Of a stretch of DNA of 64,000 nt, positions 39,701 through 64,000 are shown one piece after another. A program made the position numbers and the translations under genes. The stretch covers positions 31,545,112-31,609,111 of the forward strand of contig NC_092675.1 of NCBI RefSeq assembly GCF_964355755.1, read 5' to 3'. The notes under the pieces were generated by a model, which worked only from the letters and a program-made list of their open reading frames with translations, did not search any database and was not told where the DNA came from. This DNA is from Antedon mediterranea (Eukaryota; Animalia; Echinodermata). The number at the start of each line of letters is the position of its first letter. Positions within the stretch are counted from its first letter, which is position 1.

Positions 39701-42700
39701 CTTCTTCGCATGCAGCTAAAGTAAAATGACGTCACGTTAAAGCGTGTCGTCACAGAATCTCATGCATATGCAAAAGTTGTTTTGTTTCTGCTTCTTGTGC
39801 GCTCATGATTTATCTGTGGTACAGAAAATAATCCGATATTGTTCCAGATAACAAAGAAGCAGATTAAATATAGTTTTTTATTCGACCCATTTGACTTAGA
39901 TGCCTAGCCCTAGAAAGACTTTCTATGATACCTACTCACTAGCGGCCTAACTAAAGACAAGTAAAATACAGTATACACTACCCACTATCAGGCCATCCAT
40001 ATCCTCCCCTTCATCGTTACCGCGTGGCATTGTGCAGATACTAACCCAGCATACTAGCCCACCCACCCTAGCTCTCAGGTATGCACTGCGCTGCCACTAG
40101 ACAGTAGGAGGCCTAGCCTATTTCAGCATTTGAAAATACATACTAATATTGTACATTATTATTATTTTTTATTTGCACTGGAAGTATCTAGGTTCTCCTG
40201 TCATGTTAAAATTAAAGTATATTATTTATTATCCTCAGCAGTGAAAACAATTATATTTTGTTGTATATTTTCAATAAATCTCGCGTCGCGTGTGTGTGGT
40301 GTGGTGGAAAAAACTCTCAGCAAGTTTGCTTCATTAATATGCATGAGACTCTGTGACGACCCACTTTAAGGTGACGTCATTTTACTTTAGCTGCATGCGA
40401 AGAAGTAGTCACCGTTACATTCCTTCTTAAAAACAAAACGACAACGTGCTTGTTTCATCCAGGGACTCTTTAATGAATATTCATATTTTTAGCGACCCTT
40501 TATTTTTTTATCTCATTCTCATTGGCTGTTTAAAACATGTCTTTAAATGACGTTTGACTCCACTCTGCACACGTGGATTTGTAAGTAATTGTTTATGTAT
40601 TGTTACTCCAGCGATACGACTTGTAACGTTGAGGGCGCATGACTTAATTCGTATGTTTGAAACAGCTGTGTTATGCATGCTCTAGAACTGTGTAAAATCA
40701 TTATGATTTCATGTCTGTTATGCATGCTATAGAACTGTGTAAAATCATTATGATTTCATATCTGTTATGCATGCTATAGAACTGTGTAAAATCATTATGA
40801 TTTCATATCTGTTATGCATGCTCTAGAACTGTGTAAAATCATTATGATTTCATATCTGTATGCATGCTATAGAACTGTGTAAAATCATTATGATTTCATG
40901 TCTGTTATGCATGCTCTAGAACTGTGTAAAATCATTATGATTTCATATCTGTTATGCATGCTATAAAACTGTGTAAAATCATTATGATTTCAGTGAGTTA
41001 CCATTTGCAAGGTAGTTTACCCTACAGAAGCAAGGAATAAACTTAATTGTAAACATAATTCATCCCTTTTTGCTGCATAAGCGTTAATAACATGATTTAA
41101 AGGCGAATATTACTGTATTATTAATGATGACTAGACGCATCTGGAATCTGAATCCCAATTAACTGAGCAAACATCTAAATATACAGGTAGTTGTGAATAT
41201 CTGGTGGTTACCACCTTAAAGTAACTACCTGTATGCATTCTGGTGCGTGGATGTAAAATGACAGAGCCCAGATATCAACAAGTTAACTAAACTGGCTAAA
41301 TATAGTAGCAAATGTTTAACAGAAACAAAAAAAAGACTGACAAGGCCCGATAAGTACACAATTGGATTGCTAGCTTGTAATATATGCATGCATAAAAGTC
41401 AAAATGGAATGCTGCACTCTACCTAGAGTGTGATGGTAGCTTTCAAAAGTACTGTAATATAAAATGATATATTACAGACCTCTGTATAGCACACCTTTAA
41501 TGGCTCTCTGCGACCACTCCTTGTAAGCCATCAAAGATTGTTTTGTTTTCCATTGTACATGATATCATAAGCATAATTACAATTATTTATTGACAGGTCA
41601 AGATTGTACACTAAAATCCTTCTCAACAGTTCATGAAAAGCACAACAAAAATCTTGGACAAGCTTCTATGAAAAGAAGTGTTGCAAAAAAGAAGGGCTTA
41701 AAACATGATACCTTTAAATTACCCCCAATAATTAATTTTGCTGCAGGTAATAATTTTGTTTAATTTAATTTATTCTGCATCACAGTATGTAATATCACAG
41801 CATTGGGATACCAGGCTCTGCATAACAGCATACCTTATTACCAACATTGGGATACCAGGCTCTGCATAACAGCATACCTTATTACCAACATTGGGATACC
41901 AGGCTCTGCATTACAGCATACCTTATTACCAACATTGGGATACCAGGCTCTGCATAACAGCATACCTTATTACCAACATTGGGATACCAGGCTCTGCATT
42001 ACAGCATACCTTATACCAACATATGGATTCCAGGCTCTGCATTTAAAGCGACATTCCGCAAACAACGGGTTGCAGCCCAAAATGGCTTGGTCCTGAAACA
42101 ACCATGTGCAGAATGCAAAATAAAAATATTGTGTATTCTTCTAATATAATAAAAAGACAATAGAATTTAATTATTTACACAATTTTAATTTTTGTTAGAG
42201 TGCAGTCGAGAAATGCATTGGGATGGAATAGTAGCTTGTCATCATGGTTTCCCTATTGTTACAACATGGAACTTTCAAAAGTGCTGTATGGGAACACACA
42301 AATTAAAACATAAGCGCTTTGATGACAATTTACATAAACATGTACAGGCCACGGTATGTTTATTCTTAGATACCACGTTGATTTTACTATTCATCTAATA
42401 CCCTTTTCACACCTGCAAAAAAAGTTGTAATCACGTTTGGATAGTGTTAAGACAATTTTGTCGAAAACATACCGACAATAGGGCCTGTTTTTTCGTTCCC
42501 AGATGGTACTGTGCATATGTATATTGCCCTGGCATTGAAGTTAGTAATCAAATAGCATGCAACTGTGTTTTCTTCTGAGGTTTCTCATGGTTTGTATGAA
42601 AAAGTGTAATAAATCAGGAGATCAAACCTGGTTACAACTTGTAAACAATTAATGCAGATGTGAAAAGGTTGCTTGATCACACTAAAATCAGCCAAATGTA

Positions 42701-45700
42701 TGAAAATCCCACAAATTAATTAAGGTTAATAATCAGCAGTTAAATCTACAAACAATGGTCTGTATTACATTGGTACATTTTTTTAAAGCTCATTATCATT
42801 ATCATAAATTTATAAATATGTAAATACAGTTAGTCTTAGCACATTATTTTTTCAATTTGAAACAATAATTTAATAATAGAATAAAATGAATAACAGAATA
42901 TTTAATTTATGCCTTTTTCATTGATTTTTTTAAACATAGGTTGTAGAGGTGACGAGTTGTGGTAACTTTGCTGTTGTTGGATGGAGTACAGGACATGTTG
43001 ATACATACAACATGCAGTCTGCTATTTTTAGAGGTTCCTATGGTATCCCAGTAGGTAATGAATAACCATAGTTAGGTTCCTATGGTATCCCAGTAGGTAA
43101 TGAATAACCATAGTTAGGTCCCTATGGTATCCCAGTAGGTAATGAATAACCATAGTTAGGTTCCTATGGTATCCCAGTAGGTAATGAATAACCATAGTTA
43201 GGTTCCTATGGTATCCCAGTAGGTAATGAATAACCATAGTTAGGTTCCTATGGTATCCCAGTAGGTAATGAATAACCATAGTTAGGTTCCTATGGTATCC
43301 CAGTAGGTAATGAATAACCATAGTTATTAATGAATAATTTAAAAATTATAAACAGTTTGTAATATATTGCGCATTATATGAATATTCTTATCTGAATATA
43401 TTAATTGTATTATATCTGTCTAGTCCGACATAATGGAGACATTTGTACTGTAGCAGTCTAAACCAAATCTGTATTACAAACCATTTAATTTGAACAAATT
43501 AGTAGCAATTTGTGAGGATTTTTGTTGTCCAAACAAATAATATGTTATTTTAAAGCACATGAGGGAGCAATTCGTGGCGTAGCAGTAGACGGCCTAAACC
43601 AAGTCACTATTACAGCTGGCACTGATGGGCTTATCAAGTTTTGGAATTTCAAATCCAAGGATTTGATAAAAAATGTAAAAATGGATTGTACAATCTTAAA
43701 AGTGTTTTTACATCGAGAAAGGTCAGTCTTATTTCTTTTTGTTACCTTTTTAAAGAGAGTTACTTTTACAGTGGCTAGTTAATATTCAGGACAATGGCAC
43801 AAATCCTTTTCAAAAAGGTGGGGGGAGGGGACAAAACAAGATTTTGGCTGGGGGCTATGAAAGATGCCCGGCTCTCTCAATTTTAGGTTGTTACAATCGG
43901 TTCAATATGAACTGTACATAGTTTTAATCTATGTGTATATGAATATGAACTAAGTTAAAAAACTCAATAAGCTGCACTTCTGAATTACTAGTAAGATAGT
44001 GTTCTGAAGTAGATGGAATTTGGTAAGAGAAGCATCTTAGCTTCACCATGGTTGGGACTGAGGTAAAACTAAGAGTTGATCTTTTAGTTGCCCAACACCC
44101 TGTTAGTAACTAAAAATGTCAGTAGCAGACAATCTTCAGAATGTTCGAAATAATCTAGAGCCAAGAAGTAAAGTTAAAAAATGCGTGCATTAACTAATGG
44201 TGTTAGTAACTTATTTCTAGACTCGGTCACATCATAGATCCCGGGGACAACAATACAAAAAATTAATTAAAATATTGAAAACATACAGACATTTAGAATT
44301 TTAAATAAATCAGCATAAATCATATTGCAACTAACATTGGTGATTGTTATTTTGACAGTGGTATGTTGGCAGTAGCATTAGGTGATTTTACTTTGAATGT
44401 ACTTGATATAGACACATGCAGCATTGTCAGGATATTTGTTGGTCACAGAAATAGCATAACAGATATGGTAACTTTATTTTATTTTGTTAATGACCGATTT
44501 TAATTTATAATTCGACAAACAAATCATTTGAAATTTTGTTTTTCTTAGGCATTTCGTTCAGATGGCAGATGGTTACTTACATCATCAATGGATTCAACCA
44601 TTCGCACTTGGGACCTTCCACTTGGAAAGTAATACCTCATTCTGTTCATTAGGTTTTCAGATTAAACTTATATATATATATATATGAAAAATTAAAAAAA
44701 AATATTTTAATCTATGTAATATCAATAAATATATGAAAAATTTAAAATAATTTTCTGGTTAAAACTCACTGTGCTTTGTAATAATTAGGTAAATGAAAAA
44801 CCTGTGTTTATGAAAAGCTAGTGTTCATTAATATTAGCAGTAGCAAAATGTACTATAAAGCTAGTGTTCATTAATATTAGCAGTAGCAAAATGTACTATA
44901 AAGCTAGTGTTCATTAATATTAGCAGTAGCAAAATGTACTATAAAGCTAGTGTTCATTAATATTAGCAGTAGCAAATAGTAGTCCTAAATTACCTCCTAA
45001 ATTTCTTATATATTTTTTATTACATTTCTTCATAACATACAGTTTATATCTGTTCTCAAAACACCTTACTTTTTCAGATTATTATTTTCTTTGCAATCAT
45101 TTACTTTTAGTTAAACCAATTTTAAATAACGTTTAAAGAAGTGTAATTTAACCCTAGTTTGAAAACTGTGAACTGCTTCATGGACTAAATATATATATAT
45201 ATATATATATATAAATTGGCGTGTGAATTTTAGTGCCAGCAGCTGTCTGAAATTGGTGTTAAAATGTTCCCCTGCTGTTATAACTTTTTCCAGCAAACTG
45301 TCTACATACAGTATATACACCTACCAATATATCTTTTCTTGTCTGTTTTCAATAACTGCAATGGTCCTTCCCTATGTGCTGTCAGTTTTGGCTAACTTGT
45401 GTGGGATGAGGACTTATGCACATTCTTATATTTATATATGTTCCCCATCTTATATTTGTCACTTAAAGAATTGACGACACCAAACCAGTCTGATACAGTT
45501 GACAGTTTTAATTTAAATTGTACTTAACATTTCAAACTTCATTTCTAATGCATACAAGTTATGTTGCTAATATTTGAATGTTGATTGTCAACAATATTGT
45601 TCAATTTTAGATTGGTTGATTCCTTCTTATTGGATTCCCCGGCAACAAGCTTAACTCTTTCTGTAACATGTGATTACTTGGCAACCACTCATGTTGATGA

Positions 45701-48700: not shown

Positions 48701-49076
48701 TATGATGATCTATTTCATACAATTTTTGAATTCTGAATTGTCTAGCAAACAGGATTATCAACTGGTACAGGCTTATTTGGGGTTGTTCTTAAAAGTGAGT
48801 ATAATAATGATAATTTATATACCTACATAAAATCAATACAAGATAATTTTCCAACCATAATTTTATTGAACTTTTGGTATGTTCATAATTTTAAATTCAT
48901 ATAAATATTTTTGTATATATTTTTAGATTCATGGGGAGTTGTTAACAAAGGATTCAGATTTGACAGGTGAACTTGAAACTCTACAAAGAATTCAAACGAC
49001 TGCTTGGAAAGAACTCAATAAAAAGTTTAACCAAAGTGCATGTATTGTAAACTACTTGAAAAATGCCACAATATGA
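6741..49076 (+). CDS. WDR36: WD repeat-containing protein 36 / UTP21 (SSU processome), 22 coding exons, about 889 aa
   Basis: Exons 6741-6884, 15158-15185, 15391-15491, 17608-17722, 17837-17969, 23366-23420, 30322-30454, 30880-31055, 31743-31863, 41597-41746, 42199-42353, 42940-43054, 43556-43721, 44359-44467, 44549-44628, 45611-45718, 47017-47117, 47706-47848, 48000-48113, 48246-48330, 48607-48794, 48927-49076. All junctions are GT-AG and phase-consistent, totalling 2670 nt. Recognisable WDR36 peptides: RALGFYSN, HPSTYLNKILFGS, APAVDVVA, QDWGPITAISFRTDGHP, TSCGNFAV, AVDGLNQ, DGRWL, LVTLSLLPQSRW, KPKEPPK, QAYLGLFLK, FNQSACIVNYLK. Confidence 0.97.
7196..12898 (-). mobile_element. Academ (AcademX-type) DNA transposon, internally deleted and decayed, in WDR36 intron 1
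   Basis: Terminal inverted repeats TAGGCTATGGGGCATG...CATGCCCCATAGCCTA, with further subterminal matches (TTTCGTGATC.CCTA.CGGGGGGGAG; GCCGGTCCCGCTT). 3-bp TSD CTA at 7193-7195 and 12899-12901. Internal XPG/PIN-like and Cys-rich coding remnants are present. Confidence 0.85.
10480..11600 (-). pseudogene. Academ transposase C-terminal remnants: XPG-like nuclease and Cys-rich (CXC-like) finger
   Basis: EEADTRMFL...SPDTDDVFI...HCFTGCDSV..FFGNGK (XPG/FEN-like), then PP...HI..ANSQA...GNGW and CKKSKC...CCVSLGFSCTELCSCKNCNN. The remnants are broken by frameshifts and stops. An N-terminal exon remnant with an H..CYQYFT motif lies near 12230-12580. Confidence 0.82.
13057..14918. mobile_element. MULE/Mutator-type MITE with long TIRs (outer element)
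   Basis: Ends are CGCTGTGGCTAAAGATACGGTACCGTATTCTA and TAGAATACGGTACCGTATCTTTAGCCACGGCG. 9-bp TSD AATAAATAA at 13048-13056 and 14919-14927. The left TIR resumes at about 14205 and mirrors 14774-14890. Confidence 0.85.
13101..14204. mobile_element. Foldback MITE (about 290-bp TIRs) nested in the left TIR of the outer MITE
   Basis: 13101-13385 is the near-perfect reverse complement of 13920-14202. It is flanked by a duplicated 9-mer TAACTTCTG (13092-13100, 14205-14213). Confidence 0.82.
15544..17570 (+). mobile_element. 5'-truncated CR1/L2-group LINE with an uninterrupted reverse transcriptase reading frame, in WDR36 intron 3
   Basis: Frame is open 15544-17232 with RT motifs YRPISIT, QFG, DFSKAFD, GVPQGTKLGP, FVDD and KLLGV. 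No endonuclease domain (truncated). AT-rich 3' UTR and (TAAA)n tail at about 17538-17570. Confidence 0.92.
18071..22726. repeat. Minisatellite, 46 bp unit (44 and 48 bp variants), about 100 copies, WDR36 intron 5
   Basis: Unit TACAGTACATTT(TT)CAGATACAGACTGTGTGTGAGTGGCCCTTTGATG. Confidence 0.98.
23639..30210. repeat. Minisatellite, 46 bp unit, about 140 copies, WDR36 intron 6
   Basis: Unit ACATACATACAATACACATGCTAGACCCAGGGGACTCCAACAGCAA. Confidence 0.98.
31893..33957. repeat. Minisatellite, 47 bp unit, about 44 copies, WDR36 intron 9 (left part of an interrupted array)
   Basis: Unit AAAATCATTATGATTTCATRTCTGTTATGCATGCTMTAGAACTGTGT. Confidence 0.97.
34821..35780 (+). pseudogene. Chapaev/RAG1-related transposase remnants (N-terminal Chapa zinc finger and C-terminal catalytic-E region; core deleted)
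   Basis: After the acceptor at 34820: ATQFHEKALRSTCFCCG (H-x7-C-x2-C-G), later TCHSR and GHGPNCLAC. At 35531-35690: PKLHMLEHHAIAFMREWKGVSEQGG/ELIHAKLNR, with a 16-bp duplication that shifts the frame. Confidence 0.72.
35970..38545. repeat. Four tandem copies of a 642-647 bp unit inside the Chapaev-like element
   Basis: Copies start AGCATGGTA(A)ACACAATTTAA at 35970, 36617, 37261 and 37903. The fourth copy is more diverged. Confidence 0.9.
38849..39651. mobile_element. MITE with TIRs and many TTGCGCAA palindromic subrepeats (nested in the Chapaev-like element)
   Basis: GTGTTATGCGCGATTTGAACGATTTGCGCAATTTGAAATTGCGCAA... is mirrored at about 39590-39651. No clear TSD. Confidence 0.75.
39693..40413. 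mobile_element. MITE with about 75-bp TIRs (nested in the Chapaev-like element)
   Basis: GGTGACTACTTCTTCGCATGCAGCTAAAGTAAAATGACGTCAC... is mirrored by ...GTGACGTCATTTTACTTTAGCTGCATGCGAAGAAGTAGTCACC. Confidence 0.8.
40671..40992. repeat. Right part (about 7 copies) of the 47-bp minisatellite
   Basis: Same unit as 31893-33957. Confidence 0.96.
41801..42041. repeat. 44 bp tandem repeat, about 5.5 copies, WDR36 intron 10
   Basis: Unit CATTGGGATACCAGGCTCTGCATAACAGCATACCTTATTACCAA. Confidence 0.93.
42400..42669. mobile_element. Probable short MITE
   Basis: Imperfect TIRs ACCCTTTTCACACCTGCA and TGCAGATGTGAAAAGGT. Confidence 0.45.
43032..43325. repeat. 42 bp tandem repeat x7 that includes the exon-12 3' end and splice donor
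   Basis: Unit AGGTTCCTATGGTATCCCAGTAG|GTAATGAATAACCATAGTT. Confidence 0.95.
44814..44976. repeat. 43 bp tandem repeat, about 3.8 copies
   Basis: Unit AAAGCTAGTGTTCATTAATATTAGCAGTAGCAAAATGTACTAT. Confidence 0.9.
46333..47046. repeat. 67 bp (59 bp variant) tandem repeat x11 that includes the exon-17 splice acceptor and exon start
   Basis: Unit AGTACAGTACTAAACTACATGTTTATTYATAATAG|GAACAATAGAACATTGTTTGTACATGTGTGTT. Confidence 0.95.
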
Positions 49077-49314
49077 GAAATCTTATAAAATAAAAATAAA
49101 TAAATCATATTTAGGTTTTTGATTGGACTAAACAAACAATGTGACAATGAATTTAGTTATTGGCCACCATTGAACAAAAGACTTCCTCTTTACTCCTGGG
49201 TGCAAAAACATGTGTATTAATTAATATTTTAACTGTACTATATTTTACTATACTTTCGATGATTAAAGCTGTTGTCATACATGCATGTTGTAGATGATTG
49301 TAGCTGCTGGCATG

Positions 49315-49370
49315 GGGTGGGTGGGGGGGGGGGGGGGGGGGTGGGGGGCGGGGGGGGGGGGGGAGGGGTG
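49315..49370 (+). repeat. Poly-G / G-rich tract
   Basis: Long G runs downstream of the WDR36 poly-A signals. Run lengths are unreliable in assemblies. Confidence 0.6.
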
Positions 49371-49969
49371 TCATGTCCCTGATATAGCTGTATTTTAAAT
49401 GGTGTTTTTCTACCTAGTGTTTGGAATAAGAAATGTGATGATATACAATTCCCTTTTTGTGTAATTCAAAATAAAATGAGAATTTCAAACAGTTGAGTAT
49501 TATTTCGAGTACATTATTCTAGAAAAAGCTCTCGTAATTTAGAAGTTCTTATCATTTTCTTTGTTCTAAAATATTATTTACATTGTAATTCATATTGCAG
49601 TGCCCCTCAAGTGCCTGGTATAATAAGGTCCAATTTCAAATAGTTGTTTTATTCCGTGTTGTATGTTTATGTAACAATATAATTACAGTACAATGCACAC
49701 AATTGGCGTGTATATTGTTACCATGGGAAAGTTCACTGAAGCAAATGTCTAATTTAATTAAAAAGTATTTATTGGATACAATCGATCTTAACTCTTTCTA
49801 TAAGGCGAGAGTGGACAGGCAAGTTATGGCATTTTAAGGCTCCTGCTATTGTTTAATCATTTAACAGGTACAGTAAATAAACACTTATATTTGTCATGTC
49901 GTTTAGCCAGTTTCTCTTTGCATTAAACATGTTTTAGAATATATTCAATTCGATTATATATTAATAGGA

Positions 49970-52900
49970 ATGGAAAAGGCACAGCGTAAAACGCTTCTAC
50001 TGAACAAATCTCGCTTAGTTGGCGATATCCAAACCGAGCAGATAATTTGGGAGCTAAAACAGTTTGAAGTGTTAACACCCATACTCTTTAAAGATATTGA
50101 GCAAGAAAGTGGACGTAAAGCAAAACTCAATCGCCTTATTGATCTCATTACATCATGTGGCCCTAAATCTTTCCAAATATTTATTGAAATTTTAACAAAA
50201 CATGGATATAATGAACTAGTGGAAAGTTTAAAAAGTGATTATCAAAGATTCCGAAATGACGACGCCAGCAAAAAAAGTAAGTTAACAAAACTGAATACCT
50301 TTTTTGTGGCATTTAAATAAAAGTGTATGCATTGGTCTTATGTATTTTCTTTTATAGTTTTTTATATCCTTCAGACCGGGGGAATTATTGATGTCAATAT
50401 CATTATACATAGGCATTATGCAGTGAGTCGAAAACATATTGACACTTGATAAAGCATGAGATTTGAATTGTATATGATAAATTATGCGTTTTGTTCATTA
50501 AATTCCAATAAACCTGATTAGAAGTATCTACAGCAAATATAGATTTAACGGTAATGATACACTACCTATGGTCAAGATGTTATAATATAAATAATACAAT
50601 TCCTTAATTAATAATAATAATGCGATTCGTTAATGATGATGCAATCCGCTAAATGATAATGCAGTCCGTTAAATAGAAATAATTCAATCCGTGAATTAAT
50701 AATGCAGCCCGTTAAATAGAAATAATTCAATCCGTTAATTAATAATGCCATCGGTTAAATAATAATCTGTCAAAATAGTCCGTAAAAAATAACCCCATAA
50801 AGTAGGCCCGGTGATATCAGGATGCACTTCTAAAATGTAATGCGCCCGTAAAATAATAATACGGTTGCGCCAGGAAAATAGTCAATTATAATTAAACCGT
50901 AAATTATTCAGCTGCTACACGTATGTCATTACTTTTCCATTGTATTTTAATCTATTCTTAACATATTTTTTTCTTAACGAAATCGTTTCAACTTGTACTT
51001 CAAGAGCCCAACATGAACCAAATAGACAAAACTAATTTAAGAAGAGCGATTTCATTTACTTCATCATCTATTGAATTACGTAGACGACATTCTCATCAGC
51101 AGTTTTACGATCAGGAATTGTCACATTTTTTAAGCAAAGATAAATCTCATAATCATGCTGTTGGAGTGACAACTTGTGAATGTTTACTTTGCAAACAGAT
51201 CACATTCTGTGGTAATCCAGTCTTAGGTACAGACAATAAGAAACTTGTATATACTGTATTTTATTGAGGCTATGCTAGTACATACTATACTTTTTTTTTG
51301 TTTCTTCACAAATTTACATGTTAACAATACTATTTATCACTTTTCAAAATAAATAATAGAGTTTTGTTATTTAATTGTATTTCCAGAAACGAAACTGATT
51401 CCTATTCCACGTACATACGGTGAGGTATGTTTGAATAACCGTGAGAGTTTCATCGAAAATGTCTGGGCAGAACACATCGTACCAGAACTACGACCACCAT
51501 TGCAGCTTAGCAATCTGGATAAACAACTATTACGAACGGAGAAATCTCGTCGGAATAGATCTGAAATATTGTTTGACTTGTTGTTACAAAAAGTGGATGA
51601 GCATGGTCATAAGGCATTCTTTATGCTGCATGGTATATTGGATAGAACGTATCCTCATGTGTCCGATCTTGTTTGGAATGACCTGATGAAAATGACGGCA
51701 CCAACACCCGAGGTACACCTCCCTAGTAAGTTTCTTTACTTTATTGTGCATACAAAGTATTGATTATTATTGTTGATATAGGCATTTGTATTCACAATAC
51801 GGAGATGTTGTTTCTTTGCCAAAACTATTGTTTCACTCCGAAGACCGAATGGGTTCAATACCAAGCCACAGTAACTCAAATTGACATTAAATAAATTAAA
51901 GGATATTTTTTGGGTATAACAATAGTTATATTAAAAATTATCTGATGTGTTATACATTAATTATAGAGCATTCTCCTGCACCTCCAAATCACAACAGAGA
52001 CAACTTTATTGGAACGATTTCGGACACGGAGTATTCACAAGAACTGCAGAAAAACAAAAAGCACACAGGTCTGAAGTCTAGTCTTAATGTTATGCAACAA
52101 GAACTTCTTAACACGGGAGCTGATAGCTTGGGAAGATCAAGACAACTTGACAGAGCATCACAATTAATTGCAGAAGCAAACGGTGCAATTAAAATGCTTG
52201 AATCAAGAATTAAATGTGTTGAGCGTGAACGAGAAGACGCCCAACATTTAGAAAGAGTGGCCAATATGCAATGTAAAGACCTTAAAAAACAAATAGAAAT
52301 GCTTGAACATGAAAGCCGACAAATTCGTAAACAAGATGAAGATCACAGAAAACGTTGGGAAAACAATAAAAAATTGAAAATGGATGAGCTTCAGAAGATG
52401 AATGATGAATTGAAATCATTGGAGAATGACTTGCACAAAACACAATTAGATCAGAATCAAAAGCATGAGGAATTGATTCAAAGGAAAAGAAATCTTGATA
52501 TAATTGAGAGTAGTTTAAGCGAAAAGGACGAAAATCAACGAGATCGTTCTGCAAAATCAATGAAGAAACAACAGAACATAAAACAGCGAGACGTAGAGGT
52601 AACGAGACGCGAAGCCGATGTGATTATACGTGAAAGGGAAGTAGAGAACCGTGAGGATTCTTGTAGGAAGACAGGCCTCGAACAAAGACGTCGTTCAATG
52701 GAATTAAAAAGAAGGGAAGCAGAAGCAATTGTGCTTCAAGAGCAATATCAAATGAAGGAAGATAATCTTAATGATCAGATAAAGGAAAACAAGATGTGAG
52801 TTGTTTTTTAGGTTTTTTTTTTTAAACTATAAAAGCAGGAAAGAATTCTTCCCTGATAAAAGCTACTAAAAGGTGCTATTTCCATTTGTGAATCTCATTG

Positions 52901-55431
52901 ACTGTGTTATCATTTTTCAAATATTACTTCAACATAATTATTTCAAATTATAAGGTAAGATAAACTTTACCACCACGTTTACAACTGGGATATACATAGT
53001 GAATTACCGTATACAGACATAAATAAATCCATAGGCCTACTAGTAACATATTTATACTTGTGTGTAGGCCTATAATTTTGTACTAGAAAAACAAATACTG
53101 TAAGTTCAAAAATCAACTACCATTACGTCATTAATTTATTAAATAAAAAAAAATCTTATTATCAAAGGCAGCATAAATGATTATCATATAGTTGTAGAAT
53201 TTTCTAATTTTATTTTGTTTTATTTAAGAAAAATGTATATTTATTTACTTATCGTCGTTCGTTCTAGTGTGTAGGTGCCTTTAAAGTATAAGCAACTTGC
53301 AACGCATTATATTTAAATGGTATTAGTTTGGAATAGCATGCTACTTCACCGTCAGTCCACGTCTAGAGAACGCACTGCTTGTCTAGTCCAATCCAGTTCC
53401 TAATCCTAACTTTTTATTGTGCTTTATCCAATCGTCACTTATTGTTGCTAAATTCATAGAAAATAGTATTATTATAATATTCGAGATTTGTTTGATTTCA
53501 GAAAGCAAAGTGAAATTATGGCTCAGTTGAAAGATCTAAAAAAACAAGGAGAGAATTTAGATGAACAGAACATGGAGCAAAGTATGAAGGAGGAGCTACT
53601 AAGGGAGAAGGAAAACAGTATCGAACAACGGGAGCGGGATACTAAAGCTGCATTGCAACAGAAAACCGCGGCACTTGAAGAAGAGAAAGAACTTGTGGAA
53701 TTGGAGAGGCAGCGTTGGTACAGTGAATGGCGTCAAAAAGAACATAACATTAAACAAACAGAAGAAGAATGGAACAAAAAAACAGACGAGTTACAAGATC
53801 GAGAAAGAACATTGAGAAACATGGAAGACGAAATGAATAAAAAGAATAATGAATTAAGACAAGCACAGAAAGAATGCAAAGAGAGAACAGACGAAAATCA
53901 GAGAAAGGAAGAAGAGCTCACAATTGAGACTAAAAGATTATATGAAAAAGAACACAAGCTGAAATCTCGTAAAACAGATTTGGACAAAAGAGAGCAAGAT
54001 ATTGGTTCAATAGAACATGGCAGACGAGTGTTAAATGAAGATGTTGAACGTTTTAAAGCAGAGCAAAGAGATCGTGAAAAAGATTTCATGTTGAGATATG
54101 AAGAAATGGATACCAAATATGAACAGTTGCGAAAACAAGAAGATATGCTGATCAATATACAGATGAAACAGAGACAAAGAGAATTACTGTTACAAAAGAG
54201 GGAAAATAATAATTATATGCTCGAAGATGATCCAAGTAATACGGTACAGAATAACGTAGAAACGGTTACACGTACCTCAAGTGACAGTGGTTTGACAGAC
54301 GAGCCTATTATGTGTGAGTATACTATTGTACAAAGAGGTGATGATCAAAACTCTCCACGACGGTTTCAACCTTTTAACATTAAGGTTTCGCCAGGCTTGA
54401 CTATCTGGGGTCTAAAAACAATACTAGATAAAGAAGAGGGAATACCGACTCACTGGCAGCGGTTTTATTATGGAGGAATTCAACTTAATGATACCACAAC
54501 CCTTTCTGAAAATTCAATTGTACCCGAATCTTCGATATATTTAAAATTAGACGTGAAAGAAGGTTCAACAACTATCATTCTTAAAACTGGACAGAGAACA
54601 CGGATGATTGACGTTGACTTAAATGAAACAGTTGCTGTGACGAAGGCGCGAATATACAAGTATGAAGGTGTACCACCACATCAGCAAATATTGTTACATC
54701 GGGATGTCGTTATGGATGACGGTAACTTACTTCACGACTTTAATCTACACAAGAACTCTGCAATATCAATGAAATTAAACTACCGCATATGGGTTAGAAC
54801 TAAATCAAATACACTGATTCCCTTGGAGGTCGATGAACTTTCGACAATCAGAAATGTCAAATTTCTTTTGAGAGAAGCTGCTGGCGTTTGTGTTGATTCT
54901 CAAAAGCTAGGATTTAGAGGGAAGTTCCTAGATGATAGCCGTTCCCTCATTCACTATAAAATATGTGAGGGAAGTACAGTAGATCTTACGTGTGCGGTAA
55001 CCATCTCTCAAAAACCAGCAGGTGAAAGTTTGAAAATGGAACTAGATCCGTGTGTGACTGTTAAACAGTTAAAAGAAGAAATACGAAGAATAAAAGCAAT
55101 ACCAGTAAACAGACAAGCATTAGTAGTTCGTGATCAGCATCTACATGATGGTGATATGGTAATGGATCATTTGAAGAAGGGATCAATCATTAATCTACAT
55201 AGTGGTAATGTAATGATTGTCTCTTCATCTGGAAAGGTAATACTTAGTGATGTACAGCCATGGCATAATGTTTTGAAAGTTAAAGAGATGATTGAGCGTA
55301 AGACTGGAATAACAGTGCATATGCAACATTTGGAATATCAAGGGTCTGCCTTAGTTTCGGGCAGTTTACGACTATCGGATTTCGATATTAAAAATGGAAG
55401 TGTCTTGCAAATGAAACAAATAGAAGGTTAG
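49970..55431 (+). CDS. Uncharacterised tandem-CARD, coiled-coil, 5x ubiquitin-like domain protein (about 1134 aa, 4 coding exons)
   Basis: Exons 49970-50276 (CARD1: MEKAQRKTLLLNKSRLV...LIDLITSCGPKSFQIFIEIL...GYNELVESL), 51387-51725 (CARD2: NRESFIENV...LFDLLLQK...GHKAFFMLHGILDRTYPHVSDLV), 51967-52795 (E/K/Q/R-rich coiled coil) and 53502-55431 (coiled coil, then five UBL repeats such as LKTILDKEEGIPTHWQRFYYGGIQLNDTTTL and EGVPPHQQIL). Junction phases 1,1,2 give an open 3405-nt CDS. Confidence 0.88.
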
Positions 55432-56329
55432 ATCATTAAATGCCATTTCAATCAAAGAAGGTATTATTCGTTGTGCTTAAATAATTGTATGTCCTGGTAG
55501 TACTGTAGTATTATGCAAGTGATACTCTATTTAAATTTCGATTTAGAGAATCGTAAAGTACAGTGTATACTATACGTGTTTAGGGAGAGATAATTTCTGT
55601 AGTTGAAAAGCAAAAACCAGTTGAAACTGGCCGCTGCTAAACACTGCATGAAAGGAGTCGAAATCCGGGTTTTAATCTTGGATAATAGGAACAACGGATA
55701 CCAAATTACGCAACAAACTATCTTCATTGTTGTATAAGCCTACACTTAAAGTAGCACTGTTTTAAGCAATGAACCAATATTTTTTCGGAATCCTTTCATT
55801 GTCCGCTTTATTTGACCTATTATTATTGTGATTATGTGGAACATTAAAGTTTATAGTAGTTCTTAATTTTGCCTTTTTTTTTTTTTTGTATATGAATAAT
55901 CTCGTGGAGATGTAGTGAGTGTGAGAGAACCGAGACCGAGTCCGGTCGTATGTATCGGTACTGCAGCTACACTTCTACAACCAGAGGCTCTATGCTACTA
56001 GTTCTGTTCGTCGGCTGCATTCATCGTCGAATTTTTTTGTCTTCTTCCAGCAGCCAAATTAAATATAGCTGAAATGTTCAGCAGCTTCATGGATCTTATT
56101 TAGCGTCACATTTATCTTTCTTCAAAATGTAAACATCTTCCATATATTATCATTATGCAACAATATTATGCCATATTATTTTATAATAGAATCTTGAACT
56201 AGTGTCATCTATACAGCAGTATTGTTCCTGTGAGCTCGGTGAAGAAACAATTCATTTTGAAACTTTAAATGCGCGTGCGCGTGTCATTTCTTGGATAGCA
56301 TTATAAAGTTCCAACAATAAACTTTAATA

Positions 56330-56470: not shown

Positions 56471-56817
56471 AAAATTTAAGCGAATTATACAAGTAATAGA
56501 ATTAAAAAATGGTATTCAACGAAACTATATTCAATCAAATGTATATAGGAAATGTATAATACAGAATTGGTAAAAGTACAGCAGCAATTCTTAAAACATG
56601 GCTTATATTCTGGCTTATATATCATATTAACCACAATGGTTTAACAAAGTGTTCTATTACAATGCATCCATTCAACATGATTTATTATCATTATTTTGAC
56701 CACTATTCATGAGTATGAAAAATTGACATTAATAATGATCATGAAATTAAATAACAAAATAGTAAATAATAGACATTAGATATTAGTCTTTTGTAAAATC
56801 TCTAATGTGTTTGTTGG

Positions 56818-58900
56818 TCATTGAAACGGTAATGTCATTGGTTGTGGACTTTGCAGATATGACATCACAACGGCAGATATAGACAACCTTGAAATAAGAA
56901 GAAAACAAAAGTTATTAAATGTACTGTAGGTTAGGAAAGCAGCAAATAATATTCCTCATTACCCTGTCAGACAATACAATTCGCTATTCAAATAATATTC
57001 CTCATTACTCTGTCAGACAATACAATCCGCTATTCAAATTGCTTGTTATCTCTAATACACTAGTGGCGAAAGTGACTATCGCTAGTAGGAATCTTATTTT
57101 TATAGATTTCTGCTTTTATATTAAGCAATTACTTAGTAATATAAATCATTTATGTGTGATATTCTTTGCATTACATATACTGTAGAGTAATCCTTTAAAT
57201 TATAGGTAATATTACATTCATGACAGTAATGCTTATTAATATCTATGAATTACATGACACATGAATTGCACAAACCACATATATCACGTACATAAAACTG
57301 CTAAATGTTTGTTTTCCATCTTCTGTAACTCTGGAATTTGCAAAACTAATAAAAGAACAAAATACAGCTACCCAAGCACACCATTTCATCTAGAAAATAA
57401 TAATAATTTTCAAATTAAAATATAAGCATCTCTCATTGTGGCCACAGTATGTACATTCCAGAGAAGGATTTTCTTTTTAACATCTAAACTTTAATATTCA
57501 CGGTAAATTACCTTTAACATTAGTCCACACATACTGAAAATCATACCAAGTAAATTCATGTAATCTGCCATAGGGTCATCTGGTGGTGCATTGCTGTCTA
57601 CAACTGGGGGTTTGTACCTAAATAAACATTCAGCAGGTTAGAAGTAACAACCATATAATATATATTCGGTTTAGTGTTTGAATCATTTGTCATTGATGTG
57701 ACTATGCTGTAATCCTAGAGGGCACTTGTATGTAAAGGCCTAATAAATAGGATGGTAGAGTCTAGGTGGCTAAAAATATAAATCCTGCTGCTAGGAAATA
57801 AAGCACTAAGCTTACCACCAGTATAAAGTAATGAAATATACTTTAATGCACTTGTCAATTGTATGACCCACTATACGACCCCCGGGAGAGGTGCGTCATT
57901 TGTCTGATGTGCGTCATACCTTTAAATACCATGACGCACCCGTGCGTCAAAAATGTGACTTACCTTTAGGTGACCATGACGCACCCATTTTGACGCACTG
58001 TGACCATGTTGTTTATGATATGGTGGGTGGTAAAGTGACGGACATTGACACACCTTGTTCATTGATGTGACGTACCATCTACTGTAGGGTTTTTTGACGC
58101 ACCCCTGCGTCAGTAATTATTTGTAAATGACGCACCCATGACGCACCTCTCCCGGGGGTCGTATAGTGGGTCATACAATTGACAAGTGCATAATAGGCCA
58201 GTACAGCAGCAGACTGAATGGCTACAATTCATTAATGATAAAATAAATTAATGTTATCGTGTTATGGCTATATTATTATTATTTCTTTTCCCTGCTTCTA
58301 CTTGACCCTCCCTTCTACTATACATTGTTATTGCCTATTTATTATTATTATTAATTCCTATACACTATTAGGGCTAGGCTAGTGTGTGGTAATAAACGCT
58401 TTTTCGTTTGTTTTGTTGTGGGATTGGTTGTCCCCCTCCTCCCTTGACCCTGCTGTTCCATAATTATATTAAATTTAATGAATGTTATTATTAATTATAT
58501 TTTGTCACATATATTATAAACACATTGAATTTGAATAACAAAAATAATAAAATACTATCAATCATAGCCTAGCCTAGTAGGTCTATTTATGCCCTCTACT
58601 CTTACTAGGCTAGGCCTAGAGTCTGCACTCTCTAGCAGGCACATAGCTCTAGGCTAGGCCTAGACTAGCCGACTACCCTAGGCTCCCGGTCCTCCAGTAG
58701 TAGACCTAGCCTATAAATAATAGCCTACCTAGGCGCGCCTAGGCCTTAGTTAGTAATAGGCCTAGTAGTATAGGCTAGGTCATACACTGTGTGTAGGCCT
58801 AGTCTGTACGGATCCGTCTGTACTATAACTAGGCTAGCCTGACCATATACCGTTTTTCTTTGCTTGGTTTGCGAACGTCAGCAGAATTATTCGACGACAT
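56818..58900 (-). CDS. WDR83OS: Asterix / PAT complex subunit PAT10, 107 aa, 4 exons
   Basis: Minus exons 58900-58851 ([17 protein letters not shown]), 57617-57512 ([35 protein letters not shown]), 57389-57292 ([32 protein letters not shown]) and 56887-56818 ([23 protein letters not shown]). Junctions are GT-AG and phase-consistent, and the protein closely matches the Asterix sequence I recall. Confidence 0.96.
57847..58190. mobile_element. PIF/Harbinger-type MITE in Asterix intron 1
   Basis: Perfect TIRs of about 52 bp, TGCACTTGTCAATTGTATGACCCACTATACGACCCCCGGGAGAGGTGCGTCAT. TAA TSD at 57844-57846 and 58191-58193. Internal TGACGCAC subrepeats. Confidence 0.88.
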
Positions 58901-59730: not shown

Positions 59731-59749
59731 ATAATATTGCTTTCACAAA

Positions 59750-60265
59750 TTCGAAATAACGAATTATTAATTCGTTTTTTCGAATTATTAATTCGTTATT
59801 TCGAATTTATTTAAGTAATTTGAAATTTCGAATTAATAATTCGAAATTTCGAATTATTAATTCGAAATTTCGAATTATTTATTTCGTTATTTCAAATTAT
59901 TAATTCGAAATTTCGAATTATTAATTCGAAATTTCGAATTATTAATTCGAAATTTCGAATTAGTAATTCGTTATTTCGAATTCATAATTCGAAATTTCGA
60001 ATTAGTAATTCGTTATTTCGAATTCATAATTCGAAATTTCGAATTAGTAATTCGAAATTTCGAATTAGTAATTCGTTATTTCGAATTAATAATTCGAAAT
60101 TTCGAATTAGTAATTCGTTATTTCGAATTAATAATTCGAAATTTCGAATTAGTAATTCGTTATTTCGAATTAATAATTCGAAATTTCAAATTAGTAATTC
60201 GTTAATTCAAATTTTTAATTCGTTATTTCGAATTAATAATTCGAAATTTCGAATTAATAATTCGA
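59750..60265. repeat. About 21-bp palindromic subrepeats (TTCGAAATTTCGAATTA..TAA), probably subterminal repeats of the downstream DDE element
   Basis: More than 20 copies of TTCGAA-containing units immediately 5' of the integrase ORF. Confidence 0.85.
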
Positions 60266-60330
60266 CCTCTGCCCTTTCTAATGACATCCCAACCATCCCG
60301 GATTACTTTAGCTAATGCAATCTGGTCACC

Positions 60331-61699
60331 ATGCGTCCTGAAAACCATTGGATTAGATTATATTTCAATCGTAGCTTAAATTATCAAGAGATTATTGAAA
60401 TGTTAGCAGAAGATCATGATATTTTGATAAGTAAACGAACATTAAAGCGAAGGCTGAAAAAAATGTGCCTTAGTCGAAGAAAACGGCATTCTGACGAACT
60501 GGAAGTCGCTGCGTTCATTGAAAGCCAATTACAGACGTCAGGGATGCTACATGGGTACAGGTGGATGCACATTCGTTGCACACAAAATGGGTTAAACATA
60601 GATAAAGAGACGGTCAGAATAATTTTAAACCTTCTTGACCCAGAGGGTGTCGAAGCAAGAAGAAGACGACGACTACACAGAAGAATTTATCATGTAGGCC
60701 CTACCTGGCCCAAACTATATCTGGCATATCGACTCGTACGACAAACTTAAGCCATACGGCATTTGTATAAATGGCTGTATAGACGGATTCTCTAGACACA
60801 TAATATGGCTAGAAGCTTACTTTACTAGCAGCAATCCAAAAGTTATAGCCGGCTATTACGTAAATTCTGTTCGCCAAAAATGGGTTGCCCAAAGTCTATT
60901 AGAACAGATTTCGGAACTGAAAATTCTATTGTTGGTCCAATGCAACAGTTTCTTTGTAATGAGAACAGCAGTTTTATACAAGGAACAAGTCAGCATAATC
61001 AACGAATTGAGAGTTGGTGGGGCATTCTCAGAAAACACTTTACTCAGTTTTGGATGGACGCTTTTAAACAACAAAAGAATGACGGTAGATATGATGGAGG
61101 TCTTATAGACAAATCTTTATTACAATTTTGTTTTATGAAAATTATCCAGGTAAGCAGTACAGCAATTACATTGTGTGCTATGCATTATAGTCCCCAAGTA
61201 CGACAATTATAATAATAATTTGGGCTTTCGCAACAATTTGAAAAGCAAACAATATTAGCCTAGAATTAAATCACTCCTCTTTTATTTACGATATTGTTTT
61301 TTTTTTCACGGTCTAAACTGTCATTAAACTATTTGTTTTTACTGTACTGTATTATATTTGCCTTTTTTAAAGGATGAACTGGACACGGTTGCAAATGAGT
61401 GGAATGCCCATCGCATCTCAAAATCGAGAAATAGCCATGGTCCGTTTGGACGCCCGACATTGATGTACAATGTACCATACTTATTCGGGGGACAAGAGTG
61501 TATTATTCCCGTTGATGTGGCTAAAGTTGAAGTTTGTGAAAGTGAATCCATCTTCAAAAGCCAGATTCCATGAGATAAGGACGTGTTCGACTTATGTTCC
61601 ATATTCTTGGAAAAAAGGCAGCTATCGATGCCGAAAACATGTGATGAAGGTTTGCAGTTATACAGCAGTCTTAGAAATATGTTTCTTGACGTCATCTGA
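60331..61699 (+). pseudogene. IS3EU-like DDE transposase/integrase pseudogene (HTH and rve core, one intron)
   Basis: HTH (ISKRTLKRRLK), GYRWMH, GPNYIWHIDSYDKLKPYGICINGCIDGFSR, RTDFGTEN, GTSQHNQRIESWW; intron 61150-61372; then DELD...WNAHRI...GRP. Frameshifts near 60700 and 60880 and a premature TGA at 61571. Confidence 0.8.
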
Positions 61700-62021
61700 T
61701 CAAATGCCACAGCAAGCACGTGATATCACATTATCATGTTATAAATCGTTTTTTTTATTAATTAATTGTCGCTGTGATATTATTTCCAATACAAAGTTAG
61801 AATTGCAACGAACACAATGTAATGAATACAATATAAACAATTATATTTATTTATATTATGTTCAGTTGGTGATGATCAGACAGAATTGTGTTATGTAGCT
61901 GTACAATACAGTAAAACAGATGTAATTTAACAACATTTTGTTTATTGAAACTTTAATAACAGTATTTTATTTCTGAAACAATTACAAAAATGTTGGCTAC
62001 TAAAATTTGATCATAATTTAA

Positions 62022-62949: not shown

Positions 62950-64000
62950 ATCTCAAGGTAGACAAGGAGGTCTGCCGTAGAGTAGATAAAACGGTGAGTA
63001 CCCTGTTGAATCATGGCGAGTGCAGTTATAAGCATGCACAACTTTATTGAGTGATTCCTTCCAGTTGTCCTTCTGGTTTTCGGACAAGGTTCGTAACATT
63101 CCAAGCAACGTTCGATTTAACCTTTCCACTTGGCCATTGCCTTGAGGGTGATAAGGTGGGGTACGTGAATGTTAGATCCCAGAGTAAGCTTCAAGATTGG
63201 TAAATAAGTGATTTTCAAATTCCCGACCCTGGTCATGGTGCAATGTCTTTGGAAATCAAAATCGCAGTATAAAGTCATTGAAGATTAAGTTGGCTGCAGT
63301 TTTACCGCTCTTATTCCTTGTCGGATATGCTTGCGCAAATCGAGTAAAGTGGTCCATAATTACTAAAATATACTCATATCCGCCTTTGCTCTTTTTCAAG
63401 TGTACATAATCGATAGAAACAAGTTCAAAGGGTTGAGTCGTAATGATATTGACTAAAGGAGCTCTGGTTATACGAACTGGTTTCTTCTGGATCAGACATC
63501 GGCAGATGTGATGTAATCCTCTATTTCTGCTTCCATATGTGGCCAATAAAACCCCTCTCGTGCCATATGTACAACTCGTTCTGGACCAAGTTGTCCCATG
63601 TTACTATGCAATTCTGTGTATACTAACTGTTTTGTATTTTTCTGGAAGGACGATCTGAGAACGTGTTGTGGTGCAGCGTCGGAGAATACCATCATGTCCA
63701 ACTTGCAGCTTGTTTCCACTCATGCATGATTGACGTTTTTGTTTTGGTCTCGTTCTTTCTTTCTTTTCGAGTTGGCCAGCGCCCCTTGGCCTTATACTTT
63801 AGGACTCTATTAATGGCTGGATCTTGTGTTAGAACTGTCTTTATATCTTCTGGGCAGAGGTTATTAATTAAGGGTCTTAAGGGTTTCTCAATATCTGGAT
63901 CTATGATCTGACCATGTAGTTAAGCCTTCTGCCTAAGTATTCACACCATGGACTGCCGCTTGCATGACCTCTTCAGATATTTCTTCCGAACACAACTTTT
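62950..64000 (-). mobile_element. Decayed Ty3/Gypsy pol fragment (H2C2 zinc finger and integrase core)
   Basis: [13 protein letters not shown]...FYWPHM; PFELVSIDY...[18 protein letters not shown]; HHDQGREFEN; [17 protein letters not shown]; YN.T.H.STGYSPF.LLYGR. Several stops and frameshifts. Confidence 0.88.

What the first reader, a model, noticed from the sequence alone, without database searches (positions are those of the whole stretch)
49970..55431. Tandem-CARD, long coiled-coil protein carrying five built-in ubiquitin-like domains (candidate self-contained immune signalling scaffold)
Seen: four phase-compatible exons give about 1134 aa. They encode a RAIDD/caspase-like CARD, a second CARD, roughly 450 aa of coiled coil, and five divergent UBL domains in series (about 54316-55428). 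None ends in Gly-Gly (the C-terminus is ...QIEG), so they should be neither cleaved as polyubiquitin nor conjugated. Established: RIG-I/MDA5 2CARD oligomerise when polyubiquitin wraps them; OASL activates RIG-I with tandem UBLs acting as a polyubiquitin mimic; CARD9/CARMA CARD-coiled-coil adaptors are switched on by ubiquitination. Inference: this protein fuses the death-fold nucleator, the oligomerising stalk and a ubiquitin-chain mimic in one chain. It could activate ligase-independently, act as a bait for pathogen DUBs or proteases, or be a proteasome-targeted CARD regulator. I do not recognise this architecture as a named family.
Basis: partly seen in the sequence, partly recalled or inferred. 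Interest (0 to 1): 0.85.

Follow-up and report, generated by a model that had tools for sequence, protein, structure and literature searches.

The report
Ancient twin-CARD protein with ubiquitin-like tail
A feather-star gene, whose predicted protein has the same domain order in sea stars and an acorn worm, joins two cell-death signalling domains, a long coiled rod and a fixed row of ubiquitin-like domains that lack ubiquitin's cutting and tagging motif, and it likely serves as a scaffold linking death-signalling proteins to the cell's ubiquitin machinery, though no function has been tested.

Summary
Four GT-AG exons give 1134 aa, identical to RefSeq XP_071952347.1 (Antedon mediterranea): CARD, a divergent second CARD, a coiled coil of about 450 aa and five UBLs without Gly-Gly. 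It is not a one-off. The same order occurs in four sea-star proteins and the hemichordate Ptychodera, under misleading names (trichohyalin-like, polyubiquitin-C-like). UBL1-4 each form their own clade across species, so the array predates the echinoderm-hemichordate split. It is strongly conserved (92% between two crinoids, against 58% for the coil) and packed with shortened junctions (72/71/70 residues, not 76). The polyubiquitin-mimic idea is weakened: 0 of 40 echinoderm-type UBLs keep ubiquitin's I44/V70 pair (2 of 5 scored in Ptychodera do), and CARD1 is closest to caspase-9/Apaf-1 CARDs. Best reading (0.4): a dimeric adaptor whose CARDs bind CARD clients and whose uncleavable UBL rod docks ubiquitin-system machinery. 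Splicing is not shown here: the one RNA-like run holds an unspliced contig across introns 2 and 3. Ten literature searches found no description of the family.

The parts
49970..50276 (+). Exon 1 (aa 1-102): start codon and CARD1 (aa 1-93), caspase-9/Apaf-1-like fold
   Evidence: Pfam CARD E 1.3e-8; caspase-9 CARD Z 15.2, rmsd 1.9, 99 aligned; five orthologues start at the same Met
51387..51725 (+). Exon 2 (phase 1-1, aa 103-216): end of the basic inter-CARD linker and divergent CARD2 (about aa 113-203, 51416-51688)
   Evidence: E 0.019, below cut-off; Ptychodera orthologue with two CARD stretches; six helices, pLDDT about 85
51967..52795 (+). Exon 3 (aa 217-492): low-confidence linker, family motif and first half of the coiled coil
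52140..52205 (+). Family motif at the start of the coil (aa 274-295, core L[DEN]R..Q.I.EAN..I), present in 9 of 9 family sequences that reach this region
   Evidence: residues 265-345 are the best-kept region between two sea stars, 65 of 81
53502..55431 (+). Exon 4 (aa 492-1134): second half of the coil (to about 54207), acidic linker, five UBLs, stop codon
54310..54555 (+). UBL1 (aa 762-843), long first loop, family-invariant E804 G805 P807 W810 Q811
54562..54780 (+). UBL2 (aa 846-918), most conserved repeat (98% to Anneissia), invariant T868 K873 R875 P883 P884 H885 Q886
54778..54996 (+). UBL3 (aa 918-990), closest to ubiquitin in Antedon (28 of 72 residues)
54994..55203 (+). UBL4 (aa 990-1059)
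55201..55428 (+). UBL5 (aa 1059-1134), ends QIEG with no Gly-Gly; reduced to a stub in four sea stars and in P0062
   Evidence: low model confidence (pLDDT about 40-55)

Best explanation
This is one member of a family conserved across echinoderms and a hemichordate, with two CARDs, a coiled coil and four to six uncleavable ubiquitin-like domains, and it likely works as a dimeric adaptor that holds CARD-bearing cell-death proteins at one end and docks ubiquitin-system machinery at the other. Shown: domain order, conservation, positional orthology of the UBLs, absence of Gly-Gly, shortened junctions, loss of the I44/V70 pair in echinoderms. Predicted: both CARD folds, and UBL2-3-4 joined by strands that run from one repeat into the next, as in a stiff rod. 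Inferred: (1) the conserved motif starts a parallel coiled-coil dimer that clusters four CARDs; (2) CARD1 binds an initiator-caspase or Apaf-1-type CARD; (3) family-specific faces of UBL1 and UBL2 bind an E3, a deubiquitinase or a proteasome or p97 component without any conjugation step; (4) the net effect is to set the turnover or activity of the CARD client, more likely as a brake than as a trigger.
For: Same order in Acanthaster, Patiria, two Asterias and Ptychodera. UBL1, 2, 3 and 4 each form one group of 9 rows with Ptychodera at or near the base; support 98/94, 96/92, 94/77, 88/86; 0 of 500 shuffles as low. UBL region 343 of 373 identical between Antedon and Anneissia against 157 of 269 in the coil. 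Junction spacing 72/71/70 in most of 9 sequences, with continuous strands at 912-924 and 984-996 in the model. Invariant surface or interface residues cluster in UBL1 and UBL2. CARD1 best fold matches: caspase-9 Z 15.2 and 14.6, Apaf-1 13.8, CED-4 13.2, Dark/Dronc 13.1. Motif-to-UBL1 distance is 493-519 residues in 8 of 8 echinoderm-type sequences that have both, despite 26-29% identity to Antedon, which suits a spacer.
Against: No partner, localisation or expression data. The invariant UBL1/UBL2 residues may only pack the repeats against each other. Loss of the I44 patch also removes the usual proteasome-receptor surface (recalled), so docking would have to be non-canonical. Fold likeness among CARDs says little about partner choice. 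Five distinct family models have no CARD (Anneissia, two S. purpuratus models, P0160, P0062); several look truncated, but a real CARD-less form is not excluded. Ptychodera has a short coil (105 residues motif to UBL1), so the long spacer is not required. The RNA-like run X1 holds one unspliced 4904-base contig across introns 2 and 3 and lists no joint for this gene.
Confidence: 0.4

Rival explanations
1. CARD9-like nucleator: the CARDs are held inactive against the conserved motif at the start of the coil, are released by phosphorylation of the Ser/Pro-rich linker or by an input on the UBL array, and then seed a filament of a downstream CARD protein.
For: CARD9 is autoinhibited by a CARD to linker and coiled-coil interface and opened by ubiquitin (PMC6624267, passages). 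The motif region is the best-kept part between sea stars (65 of 81) and survives in Ptychodera, where most of the coil is absent. The linker is low-confidence in the model and Ser/Pro-rich in the orthologues.
Against: Two CARDs and a linker of about 65 residues rather than one CARD abutting the coil. No CARD9 or CARD11 among 10 PDB sequence hits for CARD1. In CARD9 it is ubiquitin's L8/I44/V70 patch that displaces the CARD, and the echinoderm UBLs lack it.
Confidence: 0.17
2. One reading: the UBL row mimics a polyubiquitin chain and wraps tandem CARDs, its own or those of an RLR, to activate them without a ligase.
For: RIG-I tandem CARDs are stabilised by K63 diubiquitin (PMC11874512, passages) and OASL's two UBLs are described as a K63-chain mimic (PMC6019448, passages). 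The UBLs are closer to ubiquitin than to other modifiers. Ptychodera UBL2 keeps R42, V44, H68, V70 and is 36 of 72 identical to ubiquitin; its UBL3 keeps M44 and I70.
Against: 0 of 40 echinoderm-type UBLs keep aliphatic residues at both 44 and 70. Junctions lack the LRGG tail, and the modelled tandem geometry fits solved linear di- and tetra-ubiquitin poorly (rmsd 8-19 A; domain orientations in the model are uncertain, pTM 0.31). The CARDs are joined by a linker of about 20 residues with a low-confidence stretch (101-107), unlike RIG-I's rigid pair. Caveat: I did not test whether OASL itself keeps the I44 patch, so loss of the patch does not exclude an OASL-type action.
Confidence: 0.12
3. Tripwire or decoy: pathogen deubiquitinases, ligases or proteases attack the UBL row, and its destruction from the C-terminus frees an active CARD-CARD-coil fragment.
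For: Sensor-like layout with a death fold at one end; UBL5 is lost in sea stars and a sixth UBL is present in Ptychodera, so the distal end does change. Unchecked notes on UBL-capped CARD8 relatives in cartilaginous fish show a parallel UBL plus CARD pairing.
Against: UBLs are the slowest-evolving part between crinoids (92% against 58%). The searches returned one protein per named species, apart from two versions of the S. purpuratus model, and no expansion (not a genome-wide count). There is no Gly-Gly for a deubiquitinase to cut.
Confidence: 0.1
4. Model artefact: the CARD exons and the coil-UBL exons belong to separate transcripts, or the main product lacks the CARDs.
For: No splice joint for this gene in run X1, while both neighbours show spliced joints. 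Five distinct family models lack CARDs. All six full-length models are RefSeq predictions from one pipeline.
Against: Six proteins from five genera share the fused order with collinear CARD1, CARD2 and linker lengths. Anneissia aligns without a gap across the exon 3-4 junction. Ptychodera has three RefSeq accessions for the same fused protein. Phases and splice sites fit.
Confidence: 0.1
5. Non-immune structural or developmental role: a long spacer whose CARDs self-assemble and whose UBLs bind cytoskeletal, ciliary or nuclear partners.
For: Conserved coil length in echinoderms, apparently single copy, placed between two housekeeping genes; a basic patch between the CARDs in 6 of 6 full-length sequences could be a nuclear localisation signal (inference).
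Against: CARDs are almost always used in cell-death or immune signalling (general knowledge; PMC11874512, passages).
Confidence: 0.11

Closest known systems
CARD9 / CARMA (CARD10, 11, 14) CARD-coiled-coil adaptors
   Same: N-terminal CARD, linker, long coiled coil, no enzyme domain.
   Different: Two CARDs instead of one; caspase-9/Apaf-1-like CARD1; C-terminal row of 4-6 UBLs instead of the CARD9 tail or the PDZ-SH3-GUK module (recalled).
RIG-I / MDA5
   Same: Tandem N-terminal CARDs.
   Different: No helicase or RLR C-terminal domain by Pfam; CARDs separated by a linker; ubiquitin-like units are built in rather than supplied as chains.
OASL
   Same: C-terminal tandem UBLs; chicken OASL di-UBL is a fold match (Z 15.0, rmsd 10.7, 144 aligned).
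   Different: No OAS domain; 4-6 UBLs; carries its own CARDs and a coil.
USP7 C-terminal five-UBL array
   Same: Five integral, uncleaved UBLs in series used as a docking and regulatory platform (function recalled); Foldseek hit at E 2e-13 with 12% identity and low TM-score.
   Different: No protease domain; these UBLs stay much closer to ubiquitin (19-28 of 72 residues).
Polyubiquitin (UBB/UBC), ISG15, FAT10
   Same: Head-to-tail beta-grasp repeats; polyubiquitin is the best sequence match and the likely source.
   Different: Repeats are 15-20 residues identical to each other, position-specific across species, without Gly-Gly, spaced 70-76 residues apart.
Caspase-9, Apaf-1, CED-3/CED-4, Dronc/Dark CARDs
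   Same: Best sequence and fold matches for CARD1.
   Different: No caspase or NB-ARC domain.

Membership tests
CARD death-fold proteins | Six-helix CARD fold, CARD1 | tested here: met
   Pfam CARD E 1.3e-8 above cut-off; caspase-9 CARD Z 15.2, rmsd 1.9, 99 aligned
CARD death-fold proteins | Six-helix CARD fold, CARD2 | tested here: met
   Pfam alone is below cut-off (E 0.019); six helices at pLDDT about 85; orthologous Ptychodera domain scores as CARD and CARD_2. No fold-search row covered it.
Polyubiquitin (UBB/UBC) | Near-identical 76-residue repeats | tested here: not met
   19-28 of 72 identical to ubiquitin; spacing 76, 72, 71, 70
Polyubiquitin (UBB/UBC) | Gly-Gly cleavage site after each repeat | tested here: not met
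   Only GG is internal to UBL1; no C-terminal GG in 10 of 10 family sequences
Conjugatable UBL modifiers (ISG15, FAT10, NEDD8) | C-terminal di-glycine | tested here: not met
   Ends QIEG; other members end differently and none in GG
RIG-I-like receptors | DExD/H helicase and RLR C-terminal domain | tested here: not met
   None among the 19 Pfam families hit by 11 members
RIG-I-like receptors | RIG-I-type rigid tandem CARD | tested here: inconclusive
   Linker with low-confidence residues 101-107; CARD_2 scores below CARD for exon 1; the 50 listed fold rows were filled by UBL and apoptosome CARDs
OASL | OAS nucleotidyltransferase-fold domain | tested here: not met
OASL | C-terminal tandem UBLs | tested here: met
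OASL | UBLs activate a tandem CARD | not testable with these tools
   needs binding and signalling assays
CARD9/CARMA | Single CARD directly followed by the coiled coil | tested here: not met
   Two CARDs, then about 65 residues before the coil
CARD9/CARMA | CARD9/CARD11-type CARD sequence | tested here: inconclusive
   Not among 10 PDB hits for CARD1 or 2 weak hits for CARD2
CARD9/CARMA | Autoinhibition and BCL10 nucleation | not testable with these tools
   needs experiment
USP7 | TRAF and USP catalytic domains | tested here: not met
Ubiquitin-mimicking UBLs that use the I44 patch | Aliphatic residues at ubiquitin positions 44 and 70 | tested here: not met
   0 of 5 in Antedon, 0 of 40 in echinoderm-type rows, 2 of 5 scored in Ptychodera (hand-anchored alignment, sixth Ptychodera UBL not scored)

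The most novel reading that the evidence does not exclude
An undescribed class of deuterostome death-fold scaffolds in which an ancient polyubiquitin gene was frozen into a stiff, uncleavable 4-6-UBL rod and fused to twin CARDs, so that caspase or CARD signalling is wired to the ubiquitin system with no conjugation step. The hemichordate form, with a short coil and ubiquitin-like patches on UBL2-3, would be the ancestral built-in chain mimic; echinoderms stretched the coil into a spacer of fixed length and re-faced the UBLs.
Probability: 0.25. Interest if true: 0.8.

Novelty: new variant of a known kind. Interest (0 to 1): 0.58.

Why it matters
Known CARD systems take ubiquitin as an outside signal. 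A family that has carried a fixed ubiquitin-like array on the same chain since before echinoderms and hemichordates split (Cambrian or earlier, recalled) offers a natural test of whether a genetically encoded UBL row can replace a chain, or has become a docking platform of its own. It adds a hidden component to invertebrate deuterostome cell-death or immune signalling. It also corrects annotation: members are filed as trichohyalin-like, golgin-like, leucine-rich-repeat protein, polyubiquitin-like or uncharacterised. Sea stars and sea urchins are tractable, so the family can be tested directly.

Tried and rejected
No whole genome is held for this window, so paralogue count and synteny are open. 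No run was on record as RNA. X1 behaves as RNA (spliced joints in both neighbours), but contigs show presence only, and parts of exon 1 and intron 1 had no listed cover; this is not evidence against expression. Word-based searches with the UBL region and the N-terminal 340 residues found only the protein itself; the family appeared only in the full phmmer scan (best 150 of 4594 listed, mostly generic multi-ubiquitin proteins) and the profile search (6 hits among 7989 candidates, 5 of them family; P0162 is not). Range outside echinoderms and hemichordates is therefore unresolved. ESM Atlas: nothing usable for the whole protein, only generic CARD clusters under 0.9 for the N-terminus. Single-sequence folding was poor (pLDDT 43.7). 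A complex prediction of the CARD pair with the UBL array gave no model and no verdict, so CARD-UBL binding is open. RIG-I, MDA5 and CARD9 CARDs were absent from the 50 listed fold rows, which does not exclude them. The viral fold library gave only ubiquitin-domain matches. A possible in-frame cassette exon at 51005-51226 was set aside: orthologues have no insert there (26-33 residues across the linker) and it has no convincing domain. Nesting inside WDR36 was rejected: that gene ends at about 49077. The RIG-I-ubiquitin structure paper PMC6136653 is not held. OASL's own patch residues could not be read. Earlier-findings look-ups by words, sequence and place found nothing on this family.
Full report
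Observation. The four exons 49970-50276, 51387-51725, 51967-52795 and 53502-55431 have GT-AG ends and compatible phases (1, 1, 2) and give 1134 aa with one terminal stop. A database protein of 1134 aa, RefSeq XP_071952347.1 'uncharacterized protein' of the feather star Antedon mediterranea, matched at 100% and is identical to this translation; its 90% cluster has one member. Pfam finds a CARD in exon 1 (E 1.3e-8), a weak CARD in exon 2 (E 0.019, below cut-off) and five ubiquitin stretches in exon 4. An AlphaFold2 model built from a 6-row alignment (mean pLDDT 61.3, pTM 0.31) gives two six-helix domains at pLDDT about 78 and 85, long helices from 269 to 727 with two breaks, confident beta-grasp folds for UBL2-4, a middling UBL1 and a poor UBL5. 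Heptad periodicity is significant in two of three coil segments. The only Gly-Gly is inside UBL1.

Surroundings and RNA. The gene lies between a WDR36/UTP21 gene that ends at about 49077 on the same strand and an Asterix/WDR83OS gene that points toward it on the minus strand. Of four runs laid, X1 shows spliced joints in both neighbours (48794-48927 GT..AG; 57389-57512 CT..AC) and so holds RNA. Over this gene it lists no joint. One 4904-base contig runs unspliced from 50998 to 55861, across introns 2 and 3. This may be antisense read-through from Asterix, intron-retaining RNA or DNA; contigs carry no strand and their depth cannot rank these. The contig differs from the window at four coding positions (three missense, one silent) with no stop or frameshift. 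The join of distal coil and UBLs needs no splicing, since both lie in exon 4.

It is a family. phmmer against 1.84 billion representatives gave 4594 hits, of which the best 150 were listed. Most are generic multi-ubiquitin proteins; I scanned 44 of them with Pfam and all 158 proteins then held with a CARD profile and with the coil motif. A profile of the UBL region added three more members. Full-length members with CARD, CARD, linker, motif, coil and UBL row are Antedon, Acanthaster planci XP_022111357 ('trichohyalin-like'), Patiria miniata XP_038069439, Asterias rubens XP_033636532, A. amurensis XP_071800365 and the hemichordate Ptychodera flava XP_070564179-81 ('polyubiquitin-C-like'). Sea stars have four UBLs and a stub; Ptychodera has a short coil and six UBLs (five by Pfam; the sixth read from the alignment). 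Models without CARDs are Anneissia japonica XP_033125643 (starts at Antedon residue 460), two S. purpuratus models (one marked partial) with Logan relatives, and two unnamed ENA proteins, P0160 and P0062. P0062 and the Logan pieces begin with what looks like translated intron (inference). Whether urchins truly lack the CARDs is open.

The array is old and fixed. In a tree of 54 UBL rows (74 columns, few for so many rows), UBL1, 2, 3 and 4 each form one group of 9 rows, with support 98/94, 96/92, 94/77 and 88/86; UBL5 does not (Ptychodera's is long-branched). Repeats group by position, not by species, so the order predates the echinoderm-hemichordate split and there is no homogenisation as in polyubiquitin. 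Repeat spacing is 76-82, 72, 71 (75 in Ptychodera) and 69-72 residues: the last three junctions lack the LRGG tail, and the model runs the last strand of one repeat into the first of the next. Between the two crinoids the UBL region is 343 of 373 identical, UBL2 98%, against 157 of 269 in the coil. Between two sea stars the UBL region (207 of 321) is no more conserved than the coil (241 of 359), and the motif region leads at 65 of 81, so the contrast is not universal. Motif-to-UBL1 distance is 493-519 residues in eight echinoderm-type sequences and 105 in Ptychodera.

Is it a ubiquitin-chain mimic? Ubiquitin's L8/I44/V70 patch is its commonest binding surface and the one that opens CARD9 (PMC6624267, passages). 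In Antedon position 44 reads Y, L, G, V, E and position 70 reads K, K, T, H, K. Both are aliphatic in 2 of 45 scored repeats, both in Ptychodera (UBL2 and UBL3), and in 0 of 40 echinoderm-type repeats. K48 and K63 are not kept; the K27 equivalent is present in every full repeat scored. What is invariant is a different face: E804-G805-P807-W810-Q811 in UBL1 and T868, K873, R875, P883-P884-H885-Q886 in UBL2. These could bind a partner or pack the repeats; I had no coordinates to tell. CARD1's best sequence and fold matches are caspase-9, Apaf-1, CED-4 and Dark/Dronc. RIG-I's two CARDs are rigidly joined and bind K63 diubiquitin (PMC11874512, passages), whereas these are separated by a basic linker. 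Against my reading: the hemichordate keeps a ubiquitin-like patch and a short coil, and I did not test whether OASL, the known mimic (PMC6019448, passages), keeps the patch itself.

Mechanism. The best-supported reading (0.4) is a dimeric adaptor. The motif would start a parallel coil and cluster four CARDs, the CARDs would bind an initiator-caspase or Apaf-1-type client, and the stiff UBL row would dock an E3, a deubiquitinase or proteasome machinery through family-specific faces, setting the client's turnover without a conjugation step. All of these steps are inferred. Rivals are a CARD9-like autoinhibited nucleator (0.17), the chain mimic (0.12), a non-immune spacer (0.11), a pathogen tripwire (0.10) and a fused-model artefact (0.10).

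Comparison and novelty. It works most like a cross between CARD9/CARMA scaffolds and integral multi-UBL platforms such as USP7's tail or OASL, but fails membership of each, and of polyubiquitin and RLRs. Ten full-text searches of the open library returned no description of a CARD-CARD-coil-multi-UBL protein; five of them returned no paper at all. I read passages only, from PMC11874512, PMC11354881, PMC6624267, PMC8662601 and PMC6019448, and no supplements. Subscription journals are not covered, and domain-architecture tables in supplements such as those of PMC8662601 could list it. I rate it a new variant of a known kind: familiar parts, an undescribed and deeply conserved combination, no functional data. 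Interest 0.58.

Noticed in passing
window 50998-55861: In RNA-like run X1 a single unspliced 4904-base contig covers most of the gene, including introns 2 and 3; it may be a long antisense 3' extension of the convergent Asterix gene.
   Followed up: partly
window 49078-49969: Only about 0.9 kb separates the WDR36 stop from this gene's ATG on the same strand, and an X1 contig runs from 49226 into CARD1 at 50089, so promoter and upstream 3' UTR probably overlap. An AG just before the ATG could be a 5' UTR acceptor.
   Followed up: partly
window 51005-51226: Open, phase 1-1, AG/GT-flanked 74-codon stretch in intron 1 with its own ATG at 51013; GC 0.34 against 0.29 and 0.23 on either side; no counterpart in orthologues.
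   Followed up: partly
window 17800-49077: WDR36/UTP21 gene whose introns hold long 42-47-base tandem arrays: 18071-22724 (100 copies), 23639-30211 (143 copies), 31939-33957, 40669-40992, 41801-42042, 43032-43326.
   Followed up: no
window 56800-58900, minus strand: Asterix/WDR83OS gene, spliced in X1; its first intron holds a high-copy element with terminal inverted repeats at about 57844-58193.
   Followed up: no
window 15544-17229; 561-1328; 60316-61900; 63259-63600: Mobile-element remains: a non-LTR reverse transcriptase ORF, a zf-RVT piece, a Clr5 plus integrase-core element next to a 21-base tandem array (59748-60265), and an rve integrase fragment.
   Followed up: no
window 1806-3049, minus strand: Exons of an OATP organic anion transporter gene.
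   Followed up: no
P0087, P0128, P0010, P0023 (no locus): Unrelated proteins with many divergent UBLs followed by a kinase; P0087 and P0128 also carry a coiled coil between them, another multi-UBL fusion without Gly-Gly at most junctions.
   Followed up: no
P0008, P0159, P0161, P0164, P0062 (no locus): Sea stars and P0062 share loss of most of UBL5, keeping only its first strands, and P0062 groups with sea stars in the tree.
   Followed up: partly
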